Source: Candidatus Micrarchaeota archaeon (lineage in GTDB: Archaea; Micrarchaeota; Micrarchaeia; Anstonellales; Bilamarchaeaceae). From it: DNA of 51,991 nt. A program made the translations under genes and the position numbers. The notes under the pieces are model-generated. The model was not told where the DNA came from. It did no database searches and saw nothing but the letters and a program-made list of their open reading frames with translations. Below, one piece after another: positions 4,618-34,791 of the stretch. The stretch lies in the NCBI GenBank assembly GCA_040757035.1, contig JBFLYM010000005.1, positions 1-51,991 of the forward strand, written 5' to 3'. Position 1 is the first letter of the stretch. Every line of letters begins with the position of its first letter.

Positions 4618-5619
4618 ATGATAAACATAGCAATTTCTGGTTTTGGAAGAATAGGTAAAATGTTTCTCAGGGCAGCAATAGCACAGGATGTACTCGGCAA
4701 AGATTTTGAAGTCGTTGCAATAAACACTCGTAGCGCGCTTGATATACATGCCCATCTTTTCAAATACGATTCATCGCTAGGAAGATTTGAAGGAAATATA
4801 GAGGCAAGTAACGGGTTGCTCATAGTAAATGGGCATAAAATAAATTGGATACAAGAAACCGATCCATTAAAACTTCCGTGGAAAGAAATGAATGTTGACT
4901 TGGTACTTGAGAGTAGTGGTGAATTTCGAAAAAGAGAAGATTTGGAGAAGCATTTAATCGCCGGGGCAAACAAAGTGCTTTTATCAGCGCCGAGTGCAGA
5001 GTGCGACGCAACCATTGTTATCGGAGTAAATGAACACATAATTAATAAAGAACATAGGATATTTTCAATGGCGAGTTGTACAAGCAATTGTCTTGCACCG
5101 ATACTAAAAACAATTGACGAAAATTTTGAAATAGAAAAAGGATTCTTAAGCTGCGTGCACGCATACACCAATGATCAGCGGGTCTTAGATGGAAGCCATA
5201 GCGATTGGAGAAGAGCGCGCGCATGCGCAGTCAACATTATTCCAACAACCACCGGCGCAGCAAAAGCAATAGGAGAAGTACTTCCAAATATGCAAGGAAA
5301 AATGGATGGAGTTGCGTTTAGAGTACCGGTGATAAACGGTTCTCTCAATGATATAACGCTTTTGCTGAAAAAAGAAACAAACGTAAAAGAAATTAATGCT
5401 GTGATCAAAAAGGCGAGCGAAAACGAACTTCGCGGGATAATGGCTTATACAGAAGAACAAATCGTATCATGCGATATAATCGGAACAAAGGAAAGCGCAA
5501 TTGTGGACGGTACATTAACAAGGGTTATTGGAAATCTGGTAAAGATTTCTGCATGGTACGACAATGAATTTGGATATTCAAATAGGCTTGTTGATTTAAT
5601 CAAAAAATTATCAAAATGA
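4618..5619 (+). CDS. gap: Class I (bacterial-type) glyceraldehyde-3-phosphate dehydrogenase
   Basis: GFGRIG, ASCTSNCL, TTGAAKA, WYDNEFGYS; ATG at 4618. Confidence 0.96.
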   Translation: MINIAISGFGRIGKMFLRAAIAQDVLGKDFEVVAINTRSALDIHAHLFKYDSSLGRFEGNIEASNGLLIVNGHKINWIQETDPLKLPWKEMNVDLVLESSGEFRKREDLEKHLIAGANKVLLSAPSAECDATIVIGVNEHIINKEHRIFSMASCTSNCLAPILKTIDENFEIEKGFLSCVHAYTNDQRVLDGSHSDWRRARACAVNIIPTTTGAAKAIGEVLPNMQGKMDGVAFRVPVINGSLNDITLLLKKETNVKEINAVIKKASENELRGIMAYTEEQIVSCDIIGTKESAIVDGTLTRVIGNLVKISAWYDNEFGYSNRLVDLIKKLSK

Positions 5620-5646
5620 TTCTGTGGTGAGTTCTTGGAAAAGAAA

Positions 5647-6414
5647 ATGAAAATTATACCCTCTCATATTGCTATCATCCCTGATGGAATTTAAAATATT
5701 TGAAATTAAAATATTTGAAATTGAACAATAAAAACATAAAAAACCATAAACAGGAGATGGGCAAGAAAGCACAACATAACCATTGTAGAAGGTTATGATA
5801 GAGGAATCAGAAAAATACGCGATGTGGTTGAGTGGTGCAAAGAATTCGATGTGCATACTTTAAGCATGTGGGGATTTTCAACCGATAATGCAAAAAGAGA
5901 TTCAGATGAAATTGAAAAACTTTTTGGGCTTTTTAAAAAATATCTGGACGAAATAATCAGTAGGAGCAGTAAAAAAAGAAGTAATAAAGAAAAAAAAGAA
6001 TACGATGTTAGAATTAAATTTTTAGGGAGAAAAACACTTTTTCCAAACGAGATACAGCTAGCAATGAATAAGATAGAGGATTTCACAAAAAATAATAAAA
6101 AATATACACTTAATCTTCTTCTTGGATATGGTGGAAGAGAAGAAATAATAGATACAATAAATGCGATAATCAAAAAAGGAATTAAAGAAGTAGATGAAAA
6201 AACAATCAGCGAAAACCTTTATACCGCTGGAATTGATGATCCAAATATTATAATAAGAACAAGTGGGGAACAAAGGCTTTCAGGACTGATGCCATGGCAA
6301 AGTGTGTATAGCGAATTCTATTTTTCTAAAAAGCTTTGGCCCGATTTCTCAAAAAAAGATTTTGAACATGCGTTGAAAACATATGAAAAAAGAAAAAGAA
6401 GGTTTGGAAAATAA
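5647..6414 (+). CDS. uppS: cis-prenyltransferase UppS in two exons (5647-5689 and 5750-6414); spliced product 235 aa
   Basis: Exon 1 encodes MKIIPSHIAIIPDG, exon 2 continues NRRWARKH...FSTDN...YGGREEI...IRTSGEQRLSG. The ORF track only finds 5824-6414. Confidence 0.9.
5690..5749 (+). other. Candidate BHB intron in uppS mRNA (60 nt, contains in-frame TAA)
   Basis: CCTG 5680-83/CAGG 5751-54 outer helix, ATGG 5684-87/CCAT 5744-47 central helix, 3-nt bulges AA^T and AA^A. Confidence 0.85.
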
Positions 6415-6440
6415 CCAGGATTCTTGTTTGGGATTGAAAA

Positions 6441-7787
6441 ATGTTAGGATGGAAAATTACGAAAGGAGGTGAATATAAAATTGATTTGCCACCCTTAAGT
6501 GCGGATGAAGAGAGAATGATTGTTGCCGCAGAAGAGACTTTTAGGCTTGCCGCAAGCGAAAAAAAAATAGATGCAGGCAATATAGAACGCGAACTCGCTT
6601 CTGCAATAATGAAAAATGCTGACAAAGAAGAGATTATACTTGATTCGGATCAAAAAAAATATCTCACAATATACGCAAAAATGCATATTTATGGATTTGC
6701 ATTCCTTGATGAACTTGTGCAAAACGACAATATAGAAGAGATAAGCATAATTGGGATAGGGAAGCCCGCCTATGTCTTTATTAGAAAAAAAGGCTGGTGC
6801 ATGGTAAACGCGCTTTTTGAAGATGAAAAAACGCTCATGGATGTGATAAATAAAATGTCTCAAGGAATCGGAAGAAGAATTACGCTTCAGCATCCGAGAC
6901 TTGACGCCATGCTTCCAGATGGTTCGCGATTGCATGCGTCGCTCCATCCTATTTCAGGGGGCGAAATAACAATAAGAAAATTTAGGAGCACACCGTTTTC
7001 ACCAACAGAAATAGTACAACTCGGCACAATAAATTATAAAGCAATGGCATTTCTTTCTATGCTCATGCAAACGGATAGTTCGGTACTTGTTTCTGGAAAT
7101 ACCGCAAGCGGAAAAACAACTACCCTGAACGCGTTGTTTGCGTTTGTTCCGAAAAACGAGCGCGTGCTTATTACTGAGGAAACACCAGAAATATCAATTC
7201 CGCATGAGCATCAGATACGCCTTGTTGCAAATAAGGATATGGGAATAACATTGAAAGACTTGGTTTACGATAGTCTGCGCATGCGTCCTGATAGAATGAT
7301 TGTTGGTGAGGTGCGCAATCGCGAAGAAGTTGAAGCGCTCTTTGATGTTTTACTCGGAGGACAGGCACGTGGTGCGTATGCAACTTTTCATGCGCAAGGC
7401 GCCAATGAAGCCTTACTCAGATTGAAAAAATTCGGAATAGATGATATGGATTTGGGCGCGATAGATGCGATAATCGTGCAAAGAAGATTGCTTCTTTACG
7501 ATGCGAAAAAGAAAAGCGCGACCGAAGTAAGGCGGATAATTGAAATCGCAGAAATTGATAATAAGGAAACCAATAAAGAAGCGAAGTGCATTTTTTCATT
7601 TTTACTGTCTGAAAATAGTTGGAAATATAAAGAAGGCGAATTGTGCAGAAAGATTGCAGATAGTTTTGGAATGAATTTAAGCGAGTTCAAAACAGAATTG
7701 GACATGCGGGAGAAATGGTTGGCAAATGCAGGTGCAGATCTTTACGATTTTTTTGACAAAGCGCAAAAGAAATTTTATCATTTTTGA
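6441..7787 (+). CDS. Type IV pilus/secretion ATPase (VirB11/TadA-like)
   Basis: GNTASGKTT Walker A, LRMRPDRMIVGEVR, ATFHA. Confidence 0.92.
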   Translation: MLGWKITKGGEYKIDLPPLSADEERMIVAAEETFRLAASEKKIDAGNIERELASAIMKNADKEEIILDSDQKKYLTIYAKMHIYGFAFLDELVQNDNIEEISIIGIGKPAYVFIRKKGWCMVNALFEDEKTLMDVINKMSQGIGRRITLQHPRLDAMLPDGSRLHASLHPISGGEITIRKFRSTPFSPTEIVQLGTINYKAMAFLSMLMQTDSSVLVSGNTASGKTTTLNALFAFVPKNERVLITEETPEISIPHEHQIRLVANKDMGITLKDLVYDSLRMRPDRMIVGEVRNREEVEALFDVLLGGQARGAYATFHAQGANEALLRLKKFGIDDMDLGAIDAIIVQRRLLLYDAKKKSATEVRRIIEIAEIDNKETNKEAKCIFSFLLSENSWKYKEGELCRKIADSFGMNLSEFKTELDMREKWLANAGADLYDFFDKAQKKFYHF

Positions 7788-7864: not shown

Positions 7865-9226
7865 ATGTTGGCATTCTTAAAATCAAAATCGCACATTCGC
7901 ATATTGGAAGCTGAAATGCCATTGGTACTAAGAACGTTTGGCATGTTATTGGATATCAATGTTCCTTTTGTGCGGGCGTTGGAAATTGTTGCGAAGGAAG
8001 GAGAAATTGGGAAAGAACTTTCAAAAGTAGTTGATGAAATAGAAAATGGCGCGAGCGTTCCAAAAGCGCTTGCTAAATTTGCTGAAAAAACCGAAAGCGG
8101 TATAATAAAAAAATCAATTGCGCAACTTATTAGCGCATACGAACACGGTGCACGCGGAACAGAGATAATACAGATTGCAGATGATTTGATCTCGTTTCAG
8201 CAATATGGAATGCGGAATTTTGTTTCAAAGAGTTCGCTTTTCGGACTTTTGTTTGTAATTTTTTCCGCAGTTGCGCCAACGTTTTTTCTTGTTTTTGCGA
8301 CTGCTGGAAAATTCGCGCTTGAAATAGAAATAGGGAAAGAAACTTTTTTGCTGATTTTTCTTATATTATTTCCGCTTATAAATGCGCTGCTGCTCGCAAC
8401 TTCTGATGCGCAAATGCCTCCAAATATTTTTCGGATTAGTGGAAGAAGCGAAAGAAAAAATATTTATATATTTTTTGCAATTGTGATAACGCTCGCACTT
8501 GTTATGCTTATTGATTTGGATTTGGTAATAAGGATTGTTTTGGTTTTTGCGGTAGTATTTTTATCGTATATACTCTTCAAAAATGATTTCATAGAAGAAC
8601 GCAAAACTGAAAAAATTGAGGCTGCGCTTCCGAACGCATTACTCAGCGTTTCCGGACTTCCGAAAAATTATGGAATAGAAAAAATATTTGAAAAGATAGC
8701 CAGCGAAAAAAACGAACTTGGATTTGAAATTAAAAAAATGCTCATGCAATTGCGCGCGAACGTGAGTATGGAAAATGCACTAATGGATTTGTGGAAGCGC
8801 AACAATTCCTTTATGCTTAGACGTATGAGTGAACTTGTACTTAATTCGCACATTGCAGGAGCGAACATCTCCGAAAAAATGCATGAAATGGCTGAAGATT
8901 TGCTTAAATTCGGTGAATTACAACGGGAAAGAGAAAATGCGCTTTCAATGCAAAAATATACATTAATCATGGGCGCCTTTATAGTGCCGCTTATATTAAC
9001 TTCTTCGCTTTCGTTGGTTGCGCAAATTTCTTCATTTATGGATATTGGTAGCAATAATGAGGTGCTGAAAATTGCGCCAAATGCAATAAGTGCATATATT
9101 ATAATTTATTCCGCGCTTGCTGCATTTTATATCTCAAAGACAAGCCAAAGGAGTTCGCACATTGTTAGCTATTTTGCGATTATGAGTATTGCCGGTCTTG
9201 CTGGTTTTTATCTACTCTTTCATTGA
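7865..9226 (+). CDS. Type II secretion system F-domain membrane platform protein (TadB/TadC-like, two domains)
   Basis: Two T2SSF-like repeats (EAEMPLVLR, EAALPNALL) with TM helices; follows the ATPase. Confidence 0.8.
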   Translation: MLAFLKSKSHIRILEAEMPLVLRTFGMLLDINVPFVRALEIVAKEGEIGKELSKVVDEIENGASVPKALAKFAEKTESGIIKKSIAQLISAYEHGARGTEIIQIADDLISFQQYGMRNFVSKSSLFGLLFVIFSAVAPTFFLVFATAGKFALEIEIGKETFLLIFLILFPLINALLLATSDAQMPPNIFRISGRSERKNIYIFFAIVITLALVMLIDLDLVIRIVLVFAVVFLSYILFKNDFIEERKTEKIEAALPNALLSVSGLPKNYGIEKIFEKIASEKNELGFEIKKMLMQLRANVSMENALMDLWKRNNSFMLRRMSELVLNSHIAGANISEKMHEMAEDLLKFGELQRERENALSMQKYTLIMGAFIVPLILTSSLSLVAQISSFMDIGSNNEVLKIAPNAISAYIIIYSALAAFYISKTSQRSSHIVSYFAIMSIAGLAGFYLLFH

Positions 9227-14906: not shown

Positions 14907-15036
14907 TCGAAAGCTCTTCGATAACAATAATTATCAGTAAGGCAATTGTTATTCAATCGTTATTGATAGAGTCGATAGTGGTTAAGACACCACTCTCACA
15001 CAGTGGGGATTCGCGGTTCAATTCCGCGCAGGCCCA
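14897..15036 (+). tRNA. tRNA-Val(CAC) with 65-nt D-loop intron (14913-14977, about position 16/17)
   Basis: GGGCCCG/CAGGCCC acceptor, CCACT-CT-CAC-AC-AGTGG anticodon arm, CGCGG-TTCAATT-CCGCG T arm; BHB TCGA/TCGA with bulges AA^G and TA^G, inner helix CTCT/AGAG. Confidence 0.88.
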
Positions 15037-33517: not shown

Positions 33518-34696
33518 ATGGGAATTACTTTGTATTTAAATAGAAAAAACAATGAAATCGCGGTTAAAGAACCACAAGACGTAAGTTCGCTTGTAAATGG
33601 GTTTTATGGCGAAATGATCAAAGGAATAATTTATCTTCAGCCTGAAGAGGTCCTTTATTTAATAGATATACGAAATGCAAAATGCATTGATGAAGTTGGA
33701 AACACATGTATGTTCAATGACATTGCTACAATATTTCTGAAGAAAAAAAAATTACTCGCGCGCTATTTGACGTTCAAAGACTGGCGAGACAGGGGAATTA
33801 TTGCCCGCCTAAGTTGTGAAGCAAAAGGAAATTATGGTCGTTCGGTTGCAAAAAAATACAAAGGAGGAAATTTCAAAATTAATGCGTATTCTCTACAAGG
33901 CGTTTTCTTTTTTGATGATTTAATTACAATATTGGATGATGAAGCGAGCGGAAAAGAACTTTATGAAAAATATTGGATAGGGCAATTTGGAACGTACAAA
34001 GCGGCGCACCGCGGAAAAATCGCAAAACTAGATATTTATGAAACTATCTACATGCTCAAACACGGCAATCTCTCGCTCAAAAACGCAAAACTTGACGAAA
34101 TATTTTCCGAAGCCGATGATCGAATAAAATATTTTGGAGATATGTATTCTGTTTACGAGGATTGGAGAAATAAGGGTTATGTGCTCAAAACAGGTTTCAA
34201 ATTCGGAACCCATTTTAGGATTTATTTTCCTGGTGCGTCGCCAATAAAAGAGGATGATGAATGGATACATTCGCGACATGTTGTGCATATCTTTCCCAGA
34301 AAAAGTAAAATGCTAATTTCTGAATGGTCGCGCGCTATACGTGTTGCGCATTCTGTAAAAAAAACATTTATTCTTGCAATTCCTGGAAAAAAATTGGACA
34401 TAAAAATAAATCCGAAAAAACCAAAATCGGATTTTATACTTTATCATAGAAAAAAAGGTGGAATACAAACTCCAAAGGACGGCCAACCGCGGTTTTTTAT
34501 GTATTCGCTTTCAGAAGACGAATATCTTGGCGGCGAAGAGCTTGCTGAAGTTCTTTTTGAAGCAAAGCACTATGGTTTGGAAACGCTTTTAGCAATTACA
34601 GATAGAGAAAGTAGCGTTACTTATTATGTTGTAAAAAGAATAGAACTTCCTGCTAGCGATTACGAATATTACGAAATAGAATGGATGCAACCTTAA
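33518..34696 (+). CDS. endA: tRNA splicing endonuclease, three-unit (epsilon2/ARMAN-like)
   Basis: KTGFKFGTHFRIY (catalytic Tyr), HSRH, RVAHSVKK (catalytic Lys); extra N- and C-terminal units; 392 aa; WIGQFGTYK loop. Confidence 0.92.
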   Translation: MGITLYLNRKNNEIAVKEPQDVSSLVNGFYGEMIKGIIYLQPEEVLYLIDIRNAKCIDEVGNTCMFNDIATIFLKKKKLLARYLTFKDWRDRGIIARLSCEAKGNYGRSVAKKYKGGNFKINAYSLQGVFFFDDLITILDDEASGKELYEKYWIGQFGTYKAAHRGKIAKLDIYETIYMLKHGNLSLKNAKLDEIFSEADDRIKYFGDMYSVYEDWRNKGYVLKTGFKFGTHFRIYFPGASPIKEDDEWIHSRHVVHIFPRKSKMLISEWSRAIRVAHSVKKTFILAIPGKKLDIKINPKKPKSDFILYHRKKGGIQTPKDGQPRFFMYSLSEDEYLGGEELAEVLFEAKHYGLETLLAITDRESSVTYYVVKRIELPASDYEYYEIEWMQP

Positions 34697-34791
34697 ATTT
34701 CTGAATGGTCGCGCGCTATACGCGTTGCGCATTCTGTAAAAAAAACATTTATTCTTGCAATTCCTGGAAAAAAATTGGACATAAAAATAAA
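34696..34791 (+). repeat. 96-bp direct copy of internal endA segment 34315-34410
   Basis: One mismatch (CGTGTT vs CGCGTT). Confidence 0.93.

What the first reader, a model, noticed from the sequence alone, without database searches (positions are those of the whole stretch)
5647..5790. Candidate BHB-spliced mRNA intron in the active-site motif of uppS
Seen: the conserved cis-prenyltransferase motif IIPDG-NRRWA is split by 60 AT-rich nt (5690-5749) containing an in-frame TAA, so the unspliced RNA gives a 15-aa peptide. The junctions fold into a BHB: exon helix CCTG/CAGG (extended by CATC/GATG), 4-bp central helix ATGG/CCAT, 3-nt bulges AAT and AAA, and a short TT/AA inner helix. Cutting after the second nt of each bulge, the standard EndA rule, yields CCT GAT GGA A|AC AGG AGA TGG = PDGNRRW exactly. 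Established: archaeal protein-gene introns are rare, the classic case being crenarchaeal cbf5, also BHB-spliced beside a catalytic Asp. Inference: the EndA encoded at 33518-34696 splices mRNA in this lineage, and standard gene callers report such genes as truncated.
Basis: partly seen in the sequence, partly recalled or inferred. Interest (0 to 1): 0.95.

Follow-up and report, generated by a model that had tools for sequence, protein, structure and literature searches.

The report
Spliced intron inside archaeal uppS gene
A tiny archaeon's essential lipid-carrier synthase gene is broken by a short insert that has the shape cut out by the tRNA-splicing enzyme, and about thirty related genomes carry such an insert at exactly the same spot, making this a rare new case of messenger-RNA splicing in archaea.

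Summary
In the window the only uppS (cis-prenyltransferase) gene of a 95%-complete, 985-kb Micrarchaeota-like genome is split between PDG and NRRW by 60 nt (5690-5749) with six in-frame stops. The flanks fold into a relaxed bulge-helix-bulge: a 4+5-bp exon helix, a 3' AAA bulge and a 4-bp central helix. The standard EndA cuts restore PDGNRRW.

Comparison with relatives is the main support.
- Inserts of 15-114 nt lie at the same site in 29 of 72 parsed uppS loci, and in two further genomes, one of them distant.
- All 29 break the reading frame and all 29 keep a start codon and ..HIAIIPDG upstream.
- All 29 keep the exon helix in one of two compensatory states (CCUG/CAGG 14, CCGG/CCGG 15), against 12 of 43 uninterrupted genes.
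- In one genome only the bulge-rule cut gives the invariant Asn codon.

The genome encodes a three-unit (epsilon2) EndA, whose ARMAN-2 homologue cleaves relaxed motifs in vitro, and an RtcB ligase. Gene callers report N-truncated proteins for these genes.

No RNA data exist, so splicing itself is inferred. This is a new member of a known, very rare kind (crenarchaeal cbf5; Haloferax HVO_1309 5'UTR). My genome-wide scans found no convincing second mRNA intron, but they had no statistical power.

The parts
5647..5689 (+). uppS exon 1: ATG to GGA-A, encoding MKIIPSHIAIIPDG plus the first base of the Asn codon
   Evidence: An exon-1 ORF with a start codon and ..HIAIIPDG is kept in 29 of 29 intron-bearing relatives.
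5690..5749 (+). 60-nt AT-rich intron with six in-frame stops. Its limits can slide by one base because A flanks both junctions.
   Evidence: Same-site inserts of 15-114 nt occur in relatives. No other copy exists in the genome (blastn-short).
5750..6414 (+). uppS exon 2: AC-AGG-AGA-TGG.. = (N)RRWA.. through to the stop
   Evidence: Pfam PF01255, E 2.1e-69, profile positions 5-219 of 219. It is the only uppS match in the genome.
5675..5683 (+). 5' strand of the exon helix: UCAUC (extension) plus CCUG
   Evidence: MFE folds. Paired in 29 of 29 relatives. Pair 12-137 is GC in 14 rows and UA in 13.
5684..5687 (+). 5' strand of the central 4-bp helix (AUGG)
   Evidence: Pair 15-131 is CG in 18 rows and UA in 9.
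5688..5690 (+). 5' splice-site bulge or loop, AA|U (cut after 5689)
   Evidence: The second nucleotide is A in 29 of 29 relatives. Cut rule.
5693..5722 (+). Two copies of a 15-nt tandem unit inside the intron; a population variant has one copy fewer
   Evidence: TRF period 15, 2.4 copies. The run X1 contig lacks 15 nt at 5691.
5744..5747 (+). 3' strand of the central helix (CCAU)
5748..5750 (+). 3' splice-site bulge, AA|A (cut after 5749)
   Evidence: AAA in 28 of 29 relatives. AG|A in G113.
5751..5760 (+). 3' strand of the exon helix: CAGG, an unpaired A, then GAUGG
33518..34696 (+). endA: three-unit (epsilon2-type) RNA-splicing endonuclease, 392 aa, the presumed cutting enzyme
   Evidence: PDB 4fz2_A, E 3e-138, residues 3-392 against 3-387. 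Pfam. Found in 95 of 99 genomes of the family, most matches spanning nearly the whole query; a few cut at contig ends.

Best explanation
The 60 nt at 5690-5749 are a bulge-helix-bulge-type (relaxed hBH/BHL) intron in the coding sequence of uppS.

The proposed steps are as follows.
1. The gene is transcribed with the insert.
2. The exon codons on either side (AUC AUC CCU G.. and ..C AGG AGA UGG) pair into a 9-bp helix. This presents a 3' AAA bulge, a 4-bp central helix (AUGG/CCAU) and the 5' splice site two nucleotides beyond that helix.
3. The genome's three-unit epsilon2 EndA cuts between the 2nd and 3rd nucleotide at both sites.
4. RtcB joins the exons, giving ..CCU GAU GGA AAC AGG AGA UGG.. 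= ..PDGNRRW.., the intact substrate- and metal-binding motif of cis-prenyltransferase.
5. Unspliced RNA yields only a 15-aa peptide.

Shown here: the insert, the structure, its conservation and covariation across about 30 genomes, and the presence of both enzymes.

Inferred: the cleavage and ligation themselves, and that EndA is the enzyme. Also inferred: the intron is old in this Micrarchaeota family and has been lost precisely many times.
For: (1) Same-site inserts. 29 of 72 parsed uppS loci carry 15-114 nt between GG(A/U) and AAC. G113 has 95 nt there, and the distant genome G176 has 18 nt.

(2) None can be read through. The lengths modulo 3 are 0 in 12, 1 in 5 and 2 in 12; all 12 in-frame inserts carry stops.

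(3) Exon 1 is kept. 29 of 29 have a start codon and ..H(I/L)(A/V/G)(I/F)IPDG upstream.

(4) The structure is conserved.
- The 4-bp exon helix is fully paired in 29 of 29 (15 CCGG/CCGG, 14 CCUG/CAGG), against 12 of 43 uninterrupted genes.
- The 5-bp extension is fully paired in 29 of 29, against 12 of 43.
- The 3' bulge is AAA in 28 of 29.
- On alignment A1, 96.9% of cells are paired, against 21-43% when partners are slid. Two pairs show compensatory change, and 0 of 500 shuffles reach the observed score.
- Single-sequence MFE folds contain all 4 exon-helix pairs in 28 of 29 and at least 3 of 4 central pairs in 27 of 29.

(5) The cut rule restores the Asn codon AAC in every case. In G113 the genomic junction codon is GAC, so only the bulge-rule cut gives Asn.

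(6) The machinery is present. There is an epsilon2 EndA, found in 95 of 99 family genomes, and an RtcB at E 1.3e-173. The ARMAN-2 epsilon2 EndA cleaves strict and relaxed hBH/BHL motifs in vitro, including a 13-nt intron (PMC3239211 passages).

(7) uppS is single-copy in a 95%-complete genome.

(8) The insert is present in an independently assembled contig.

(9) An exact-pattern scan of 185,579 species genomes found 19 stretches. 18 are titled Candidatus Micrarchaeota and one 'uncultured archaeon'. By my own estimate about 0.26 matches are expected by chance under uniform base composition.
Against: No RNA evidence of any kind exists. No RNA run holds the locus, so spliced mRNA, the circular intron and EndA cleavage are all unobserved.

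The motif is not the strict hBHBh'. The inner helix is absent or only 2 bp in the window, and the 15-nt introns leave no room for one.

The central helix has a mismatch at pair 14-132 in 8 of 27 distinct rows and at pair 17-129 in 3 of 27.

RNAalifold recovered the exon helix but not the central helix, and it placed the extension in a different register.

The rows are related, so the shuffle statistics overstate support. The uninterrupted comparison set mixes families and covers only part of the family's uninterrupted genes.

Motif-first scans of the genome showed no excess of ORF-restoring BHBs at the true cut offset (1596 against 1455-1688; 33 against 27-41; 251 against 229-267). There is thus no independent sign that mRNA splicing is common here.
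Confidence: 0.85

Rival explanations
1. The gene is a decaying pseudogene, or carries a neutral insertion that is never removed. UppS activity is then dispensable or supplied by the host.
For: DPANN archaea are reduced and host-dependent. Gene callers see only a truncated ORF. No RNA data exist.
Against: Both exons stay open and conserved in 29 of 29 genomes. Synonymous sites next to the insert are constrained to keep a helix: 29 of 29 against 12 of 43. The inserts sit at one exact site with no other damage. uppS gave a match above Pfam's cut-off in 165 of 176 genomes of the order.
Confidence: 0.04
2. The insert is skipped or removed by another mechanism. Candidates are ribosomal bypassing (as in T4 gene 60), a self-splicing intron, or a different nuclease-ligase pair.
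For: A stop lies close behind the GGA codon and a hairpin follows, superficially like the gene 60 gap (recalled, not tested). The EndA assignment is itself inferred.
Against: No codon matching GGA lies in front of AAC as a landing site, and bypassing would not explain the conserved 3' AAA bulge and helix geometry. Inserts as short as 15 nt cannot be group I or II ribozymes, and Rfam found only a tRNA in the window. The geometry is exactly that of the EndA substrate.
Confidence: 0.05
3. A shorter UppS, translated from an internal start in exon 2, is the functional product, and the upstream 15-codon ORF is irrelevant.
For: Databases hold such calls of 196-222 aa.
Against: These products lack the IIPDG part of the motif, including the Asp. 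From recall of E. coli UPPS D26, not tested here, that Asp is needed for catalysis. Exon 1 is conserved at the protein level in 29 of 29 genomes. Exon 2 has no ATG, GTG or TTG at its start in the window; the first is GTG at 5824, and the 222-aa call starts at ATA.
Confidence: 0.03
4. The insert is an assembly or binning artefact.
For: The source is a metagenome-assembled genome. The insert is AT-rich and contains a tandem repeat.
Against: A separately assembled contig with 7 SNPs also carries the insert. 30 other assemblies carry inserts at the same site.
Confidence: 0.01

Closest known systems
cbf5 pre-mRNA intron of Crenarchaeota (Desulfurococcales and Sulfolobales; Watanabe 2002, reference list only; Yokobori 2009, PMC2738675, abstract and passages read)
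   Same: Both are short BHB-type introns inside a protein-coding sequence. Both have a relaxed motif and sit in or next to a catalytic Asp codon. In both, some in-frame lengths still have to be removed. Both have a patchy distribution read as repeated precise loss. Both hosts have a broad-specificity EndA and many disrupted tRNA genes.
   Different: The gene differs (a cis-prenyltransferase rather than a pseudouridine synthase). The phylum differs (Micrarchaeota/DPANN). The endonuclease architecture differs (three-unit epsilon2 rather than heterotetrameric (alpha-beta)2). cbf5 splicing has been shown experimentally; this case has not. cbf5 itself is uninterrupted in this genome.
HVO_1309 5'UTR intron of Haloferax volcanii (PMC7714728 and PMC10485636, passages read)
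   Same: It is an mRNA substrate of the archaeal splicing endonuclease with a BHB motif.
   Different: It lies in the 5'UTR, not the coding sequence. The enzyme is an alpha2-type EndA. Removal affects expression level rather than restoring a reading frame.
Non-canonical hBH/BHL tRNA introns of ARMAN-2 (Ca. Micrarchaeum acidiphilum), cut by epsilon2 EndA (PMC3239211 and PMC12397907, passages read)
   Same: The enzyme family is the same (E 3e-138 to 4fz2). The relaxed motif class is the same: outer helix, one true bulge, a 4-bp helix, and the second site in a loop. Sizes are similar (13-25 nt there; 15-114 nt here).
   Different: Here the host RNA is an mRNA, and the outer helix is built from codons, so synonymous sites carry the structural constraint.
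HAC1/XBP1 unconventional mRNA splicing in eukaryotes (IRE1 plus tRNA ligase/RtcB; named in listings and abstracts only, otherwise recalled)
   Same: Both are protein-only, spliceosome-independent removal of a short intron from an mRNA, followed by tRNA-ligase-type joining that changes the reading frame.
   Different: The nuclease (IRE1) and the recognition motif (twin 7-nt loops) are different, and that splicing is regulated by stress. No regulation is shown here.

Membership tests
Archaeal BHB intron (EndA/RtcB-spliced) | Strict hBHBh' motif: two 3-nt bulges on opposite strands, separated by a 4-bp helix and flanked by helices on both sides | tested here: not met
   The inner helix h' is missing from the MFE of the window. 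The 15-nt introns leave no room for it. The 5' site lies in a loop or internal loop.
Archaeal BHB intron (EndA/RtcB-spliced) | Relaxed hBH/BHL motif: outer (exon) helix, a 3-nt bulge, a 4-bp helix, and the second cut site two nucleotides beyond that helix | tested here: met
   The exon helix is paired in 29 of 29, the 3' bulge is 3 nt in 29 of 29 (AAA in 28), and 89.8% of central-helix cells are paired. The window's own MFE contains all of it.
Archaeal BHB intron (EndA/RtcB-spliced) | Cuts between the 2nd and 3rd bulge nucleotide give a functional product | tested here: met
   The cuts restore the AAC (Asn) codon and the frame in the window, in 29 of 29 relatives, and in G113 and G176. G113 discriminates between possible junctions.
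Archaeal BHB intron (EndA/RtcB-spliced) | Structure maintained by compensatory change | tested here: met
   Pair 12-137 is GC in 14 rows and UA in 13. Pair 15-131 is CG in 18 rows and UA in 9. 22 cells show a double change against a shuffled mean of 9.3. The rows are related, so these are few independent events.
Archaeal BHB intron (EndA/RtcB-spliced) | Host encodes a splicing endonuclease able to cut relaxed motifs, and an RtcB ligase | tested here: met
   The enzyme's in vitro specificity comes from PMC3239211 and concerns the ARMAN-2 homologue, not this protein.
Archaeal BHB intron (EndA/RtcB-spliced) | Spliced RNA, an excised or circular intron, or in vitro cleavage observed | not testable with these tools
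   No RNA run was listed for the locus.
cis-Prenyltransferase (UppS, Pfam PF01255) | Full-length match to the family profile, including the N-terminal (I/V)(I/M)xDGNxRWA motif | tested here: met
   Exon 2 matches profile positions 5-219, E 2.1e-69. Exon 1 supplies HIAIIPDG. Uninterrupted relatives read IIPDGNRRWA. The joined protein was not submitted to any tool.
Epsilon2-type (three-unit) EndA | A single polypeptide of about 390 aa aligning over its whole length to the ARMAN-2 enzyme, with a catalytic C-terminal-type domain | tested here: met
   4fz2_A, E 3e-138, residues 3-392 against 3-387 of 395. PF01974 at 208-295 and PF02778 at 16-50. The ARMAN-specific loop residues were not checked.
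Self-splicing group I / group II intron | A ribozyme core of hundreds of nucleotides | tested here: not met
   The inserts are 15-114 nt. No Rfam intron family matched in the window.
Programmed translational bypass (T4 gene 60 type) | Matched take-off and landing codons flanking the gap | tested here: not met
   No GGA (or GGU) codon lies directly before the AAC at the 3' end in the window or in the relatives listed. The defining feature is recalled, not taken from a call.

The most novel reading that the evidence does not exclude
The uppS intron may be the visible tip of a wider layer of EndA/RtcB mRNA splicing in Micrarchaeota and other DPANN archaea that have epsilon2 endonucleases. On this reading, BHB introns settle repeatedly in coding hairpins ('proto-splice sites') formed by conserved motifs, which is why the same site is occupied in a lineage whose UppS is only 30-37% identical (G176). 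Splicing could then couple synthesis of the lipid carrier for the cell envelope to the cell's RNA-processing capacity.
Probability: 0.15. Interest if true: 0.88.

Novelty: new member of a known kind. Interest (0 to 1): 0.72.

Why it matters
According to a 2020 paper and a 2023 review read here, only two archaeal mRNAs are known to be spliced by the tRNA endonuclease, and only one of them (cbf5) within a coding sequence. The review expects more to be found.

This case adds three things: a second coding-sequence intron, the first in DPANN archaea, and the first tied to the epsilon2 enzyme. It comes with a natural series of about 30 variants (15-114 nt, two compensatory helix states, many precise losses) that makes substrate rules and intron gain and loss directly testable.

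It also has a practical side. uppS is mis-annotated as N-truncated in public records of these genomes. Metabolic reconstructions could therefore wrongly score the lipid-carrier pathway, and gene callers miss such genes as a class.

Tried and rejected
RNA evidence. The look-up of sequencing runs listed no RNA holder: three DNA runs of one groundwater-metagenome study. Expression and splicing could therefore not be examined.

Genome-wide census of BHB introns in broken genes. There were 54,801 motif hits with 4+4 bp helices. Candidates that restore an ORF showed no excess at the true cut offset compared with shifted cuts:
- 8074 against 7967-8102 with a loose filter.
- 1596 against 1455-1688.
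- 33 against 27-41 for GC-rich helices. That filter also wrongly excluded uppS itself, because of an 82-aa shadow ORF on the opposite strand.
- 251 against 229-267 with an extension helix of at least 4 bp.
I inspected eight of the better-looking hits. They were gene boundaries or non-coding frames; the C8 hit, for example, is a separate lipoprotein-like gene. The scans lack power in a 36%-GC genome. They neither show nor exclude further mRNA introns.

Within the window, Pfam on 10 ORFs that follow large gaps showed no N-truncated domain.

Intron mobility. A blastn-short search with the 60-nt intron against the genome found only the intron itself.

RNAalifold on the 29-row alignment did not return the central helix.

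Supplementary files of papers were not opened; those of PMC3239211 and PMC2738675 could list further substrates or introns.

Six of the 78 uppS loci (L001-L078) were not parsed and were left out of the 72-row counts.
- L003 and L031 were uninterrupted.
- L035, L037 and L038 were never parsed.
- L063 was resolved later as intron-bearing.

The 21 unlisted matches were not seen, so 'confined to one family within the order' holds only for the listed rows.

Literature searches returned no paper on an uppS intron or a Micrarchaeota mRNA intron. The library lacks most subscription journals.
Full report
WHAT IS THERE. The window is contig C5 of a 985,321-base genome in 50 contigs, 95.0% complete and 0.1% contaminated, with 35.7% G+C. 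Downstream of a GAPDH gene (4621-5619), an ORF starts at ATG 5647 and reads MKIIPSHIAIIPDG, then I and a stop (TAA, 5692-5694). In the same frame, after 60 AT-rich nucleotides with six stops, the sequence resumes as NRRWARKH.. and runs to 6414. The downstream part matches Pfam PF01255 (cis-prenyltransferase/UppS) from profile position 5 to 219 with E 2.1e-69. It is the only match in the genome. The insert thus splits the conserved N-terminal motif IIPDG|NRRWA.

THE FOLD. Minimum-free-energy folds of 121 nt and 95 nt around the insert both give the same core. It consists of helix CCUG/CAGG, extended by UCAUC/GAUGG across one unpaired A; a three-nucleotide AAA bulge on the 3' side; and a 4-bp helix AUGG/CCAU. 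The z-scores are -2.78 and -2.92, and 4 of 200 and 1 of 200 shuffles fold as well. The 5' splice site lies two nucleotides beyond the 4-bp helix. The motif is therefore the relaxed 'hBH' or bulge-helix-loop class, not the strict hBHBh'. Cutting between the 2nd and 3rd bulge nucleotide is the position seen in the ARMAN-2 EndA-RNA crystal structure (PMC12397907 passages). It removes 5690-5749 and gives GGA-AAC-AGG = G-N-R.

THE INSERT IS REAL DNA. A contig of a public DNA run spans 5425-6500 with 7 single-base differences. It keeps the insert but lacks 15 nt at 5691. That is one copy of a 15-nt tandem unit (TRF period 15, 2.4 copies). The core of the structure is untouched in this variant.

RELATIVES. 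Searching uppS in relatives showed that many matches start at profile position 5, as in the window, rather than at position 1.
- In the window's family, 94 of 99 genomes have a uppS match, and 30 of those start at position 3-5.
- In the rest of the order, every listed match starts at position 1. That search covered 176 genomes in all, and 21 matches were not listed.

I fetched 78 loci and parsed 72. Of these, 29 carry an insert at exactly the same place, 15 to 114 nt long, and 43 are uninterrupted. Three observations argue against translated inserts or decay.
- The lengths modulo 3 are 0 in 12, 1 in 5 and 2 in 12.
- All 12 in-frame inserts contain in-frame stops.
- All 29 keep an upstream ORF with a start codon ending in ..HIAIIPDG or a near variant.

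STRUCTURE CONSERVATION. In all 29, the four exon-helix pairs are complementary, in two compensatory states: CCUG/CAGG in 14 and CCGG/CCGG in 15. These are a Pro third-position change matched by a synonymous AGG/CGG Arg change. The five extension pairs are also complementary in all 29. Among the 43 uninterrupted genes, 12 have each of these features, and their codon choice is otherwise varied (CCU/CCC/CCA/CCG; AGA/AGG/CGN). The 3' bulge is AAA in 28 of 29. The second nucleotide of the 5' bulge is A in 29 of 29, which is what makes the spliced codon AAC.

On the 29-row alignment (27 distinct rows), 96.9% of cells form pairs, against 21-43% when partners are slid by 1-3 columns. Two pairs show double-sided changes: 12-137 with GC 14 and UA 13, and 15-131 with CG 18 and UA 9. 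None of 500 shuffles reaches the observed covariation score. The rows are related, so these represent few independent events. Folding each sequence alone recovers all four exon pairs in 28 of 29, and at least three of four central pairs in 27 of 29. RNAalifold recovers the exon helix and an extension in another register, but not the central helix. The central helix is the weaker element: 8 of 27 rows have an A-C or A-G mismatch at its first pair.

TWO FURTHER GENOMES.
- G113 has a 95-nt insert whose 3' bulge is AGA. Its genomic junction codon reads GAC (Asp). Only the cut after the second bulge nucleotide joins A to AC and gives the invariant Asn. This is an internal test of the cut rule.
- G176 came from an exact-pattern scan of 185,579 species genomes. 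The scan returned 19 stretches, 18 titled Candidatus Micrarchaeota and one 'uncultured archaeon'. I estimate 0.26 chance matches under uniform base composition.
- The 'uncultured archaeon' stretch (G176) has an 18-nt insert at the same site. Its UppS is only 30-37% identical to the 72 rows. It has a full-length three-unit EndA at 47% identity.

HISTORY. On a quick maximum-likelihood tree of the 72 exon-2 proteins, all intron-bearing rows fall inside the family clade (62 rows, SH-aLRT 93), but patchily. The tree needs 19 changes, and the well-supported branches force at least 9. The tree holds all intron-bearing loci I found but only part of the family's uninterrupted ones. Some uninterrupted sisters keep the exact helix-forming codons (L064 and L065 next to L058-L060). 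Long introns of four genera begin with related CAGUUUCC-type repeats (L046, L050, L055, L057). I read this as one old intron with many precise losses, as proposed for cbf5. Repeated gain at a pre-existing coding hairpin is not excluded, and G176 keeps that option open.

MACHINERY. The ORF at 33518-34696 (392 aa) aligns over its whole length to PDB 4fz2 at E 3e-138. I recall 4fz2 as the three-unit epsilon2 endonuclease of ARMAN-2; the tool calls it only 'tRNA intron endonuclease'. It carries PF01974 and PF02778. Homologues are found in 95 of 99 genomes of the family, most of them spanning nearly the whole query. The ARMAN-2 enzyme cleaves strict and relaxed (hBH/BHL) motifs in vitro, including a 13-nt intron (PMC3239211 passages). 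RtcB is present on contig C23 (E 1.3e-173). ARAGORN finds only 16 tRNA genes in the genome, and 11 of them have introns. This fits a lineage with heavily disrupted tRNA genes and a permissive endonuclease.

ANNOTATION. The protein collection holds several truncated calls for intron-bearing contigs:
- a 222-aa call 'MNRRWARK..' for the window's contig;
- 196-aa calls for two near-identical contigs;
- 218- and 222-aa calls ('MTGNRRW..', 'MVNRRW..') for other intron-bearing contigs.
Some are named polyprenyl diphosphate synthase. Uninterrupted relatives are 229-238 aa.

WHAT IS KNOWN. The sources read say the following.
- PMC7714728 (2020, passages): apart from tRNA and rRNA, BHB introns are known in cbf5 mRNA of Crenarchaeota and in the 5'UTR of Haloferax HVO_1309.
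- PMC2738675 (passages): the cbf5 intron lies in the catalytic Asp codon, has a relaxed motif, occurs in hosts with a broad-specificity endonuclease, and has been lost in some lineages.

Seven full-text searches found nothing on an intron in uppS or on mRNA introns in Micrarchaeota. cbf5 itself is uninterrupted in this genome.

VERDICT. What is missing is any RNA or biochemical observation. The finding is a new member of a known but very rare kind. It is of clear interest to people working on archaeal RNA processing, and of practical relevance for annotating DPANN genomes. I found no evidence that mRNA splicing is widespread in this genome, but my scans had no power.

Noticed in passing
window 34315-34410 and 34696-34791: A 96-nt direct repeat at 99% identity. 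One copy lies inside endA; the other starts at the last base of its stop codon, with a spacing of 381 nt. It also appears as a 34-aa second EndA match. It could be a partial tandem duplication or an assembly problem. The endA ORF itself aligns full length to 4fz2.
   Followed up: partly
window 14970-15028 (+): Rfam finds a partial tRNA (model positions 9-63 of 71, 32.6 bits) where ARAGORN finds none in the whole window. It may be a tRNA gene with a non-canonical intron, or a split tRNA.
   Followed up: no
G000, whole genome: ARAGORN detects only 16 tRNA genes in a 95%-complete genome, 11 of them with introns; one has an implausible 2670-nt 'intron'. Most tRNA genes are probably hidden by non-canonical or multiple introns.
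   Followed up: no
window 5693-5722: The intron holds two copies of a 15-nt unit that is itself partly palindromic. A co-occurring strain has one copy fewer, giving a 45-nt intron, so the intron interior evolves by repeat slippage while the BHB core is fixed.
   Followed up: yes
L063 (G113), minus strand, about 296-400 of the reverse complement: A 95-nt uppS intron with a 3' bulge of AGA. The unspliced junction codon is GAC (Asp), and only the EndA-rule cut gives Asn.
   Followed up: yes
L090 / L102 (G176): A distant 'uncultured archaeon' has an 18-nt insert at the same uppS site with the same exon helix. Its UppS is 30-37% identical to the others and its three-unit EndA is 47% identical. Its taxonomic place, and whether this is shared ancestry or a second gain, were not resolved.
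   Followed up: partly
L046, L050, L055, L057 (introns of 63, 114, 69 and 70 nt): Long uppS introns from four genera start with similar CAGUU(U)CC-type short repeats, which suggests the intron interiors are homologous across genera (listing; seen by eye, not aligned formally).
   Followed up: no
window 5611-5859 (-): An 82-aa ORF on the opposite strand spans the whole intron. It is probably a shadow ORF. It caused one of my scan filters to drop the true intron.
   Followed up: no
G000:C25:9644-9985: cbf5 (TruB_N), the classic intron-bearing gene of Crenarchaeota, lies in one open 310-aa frame here, with no insert.
   Followed up: yes
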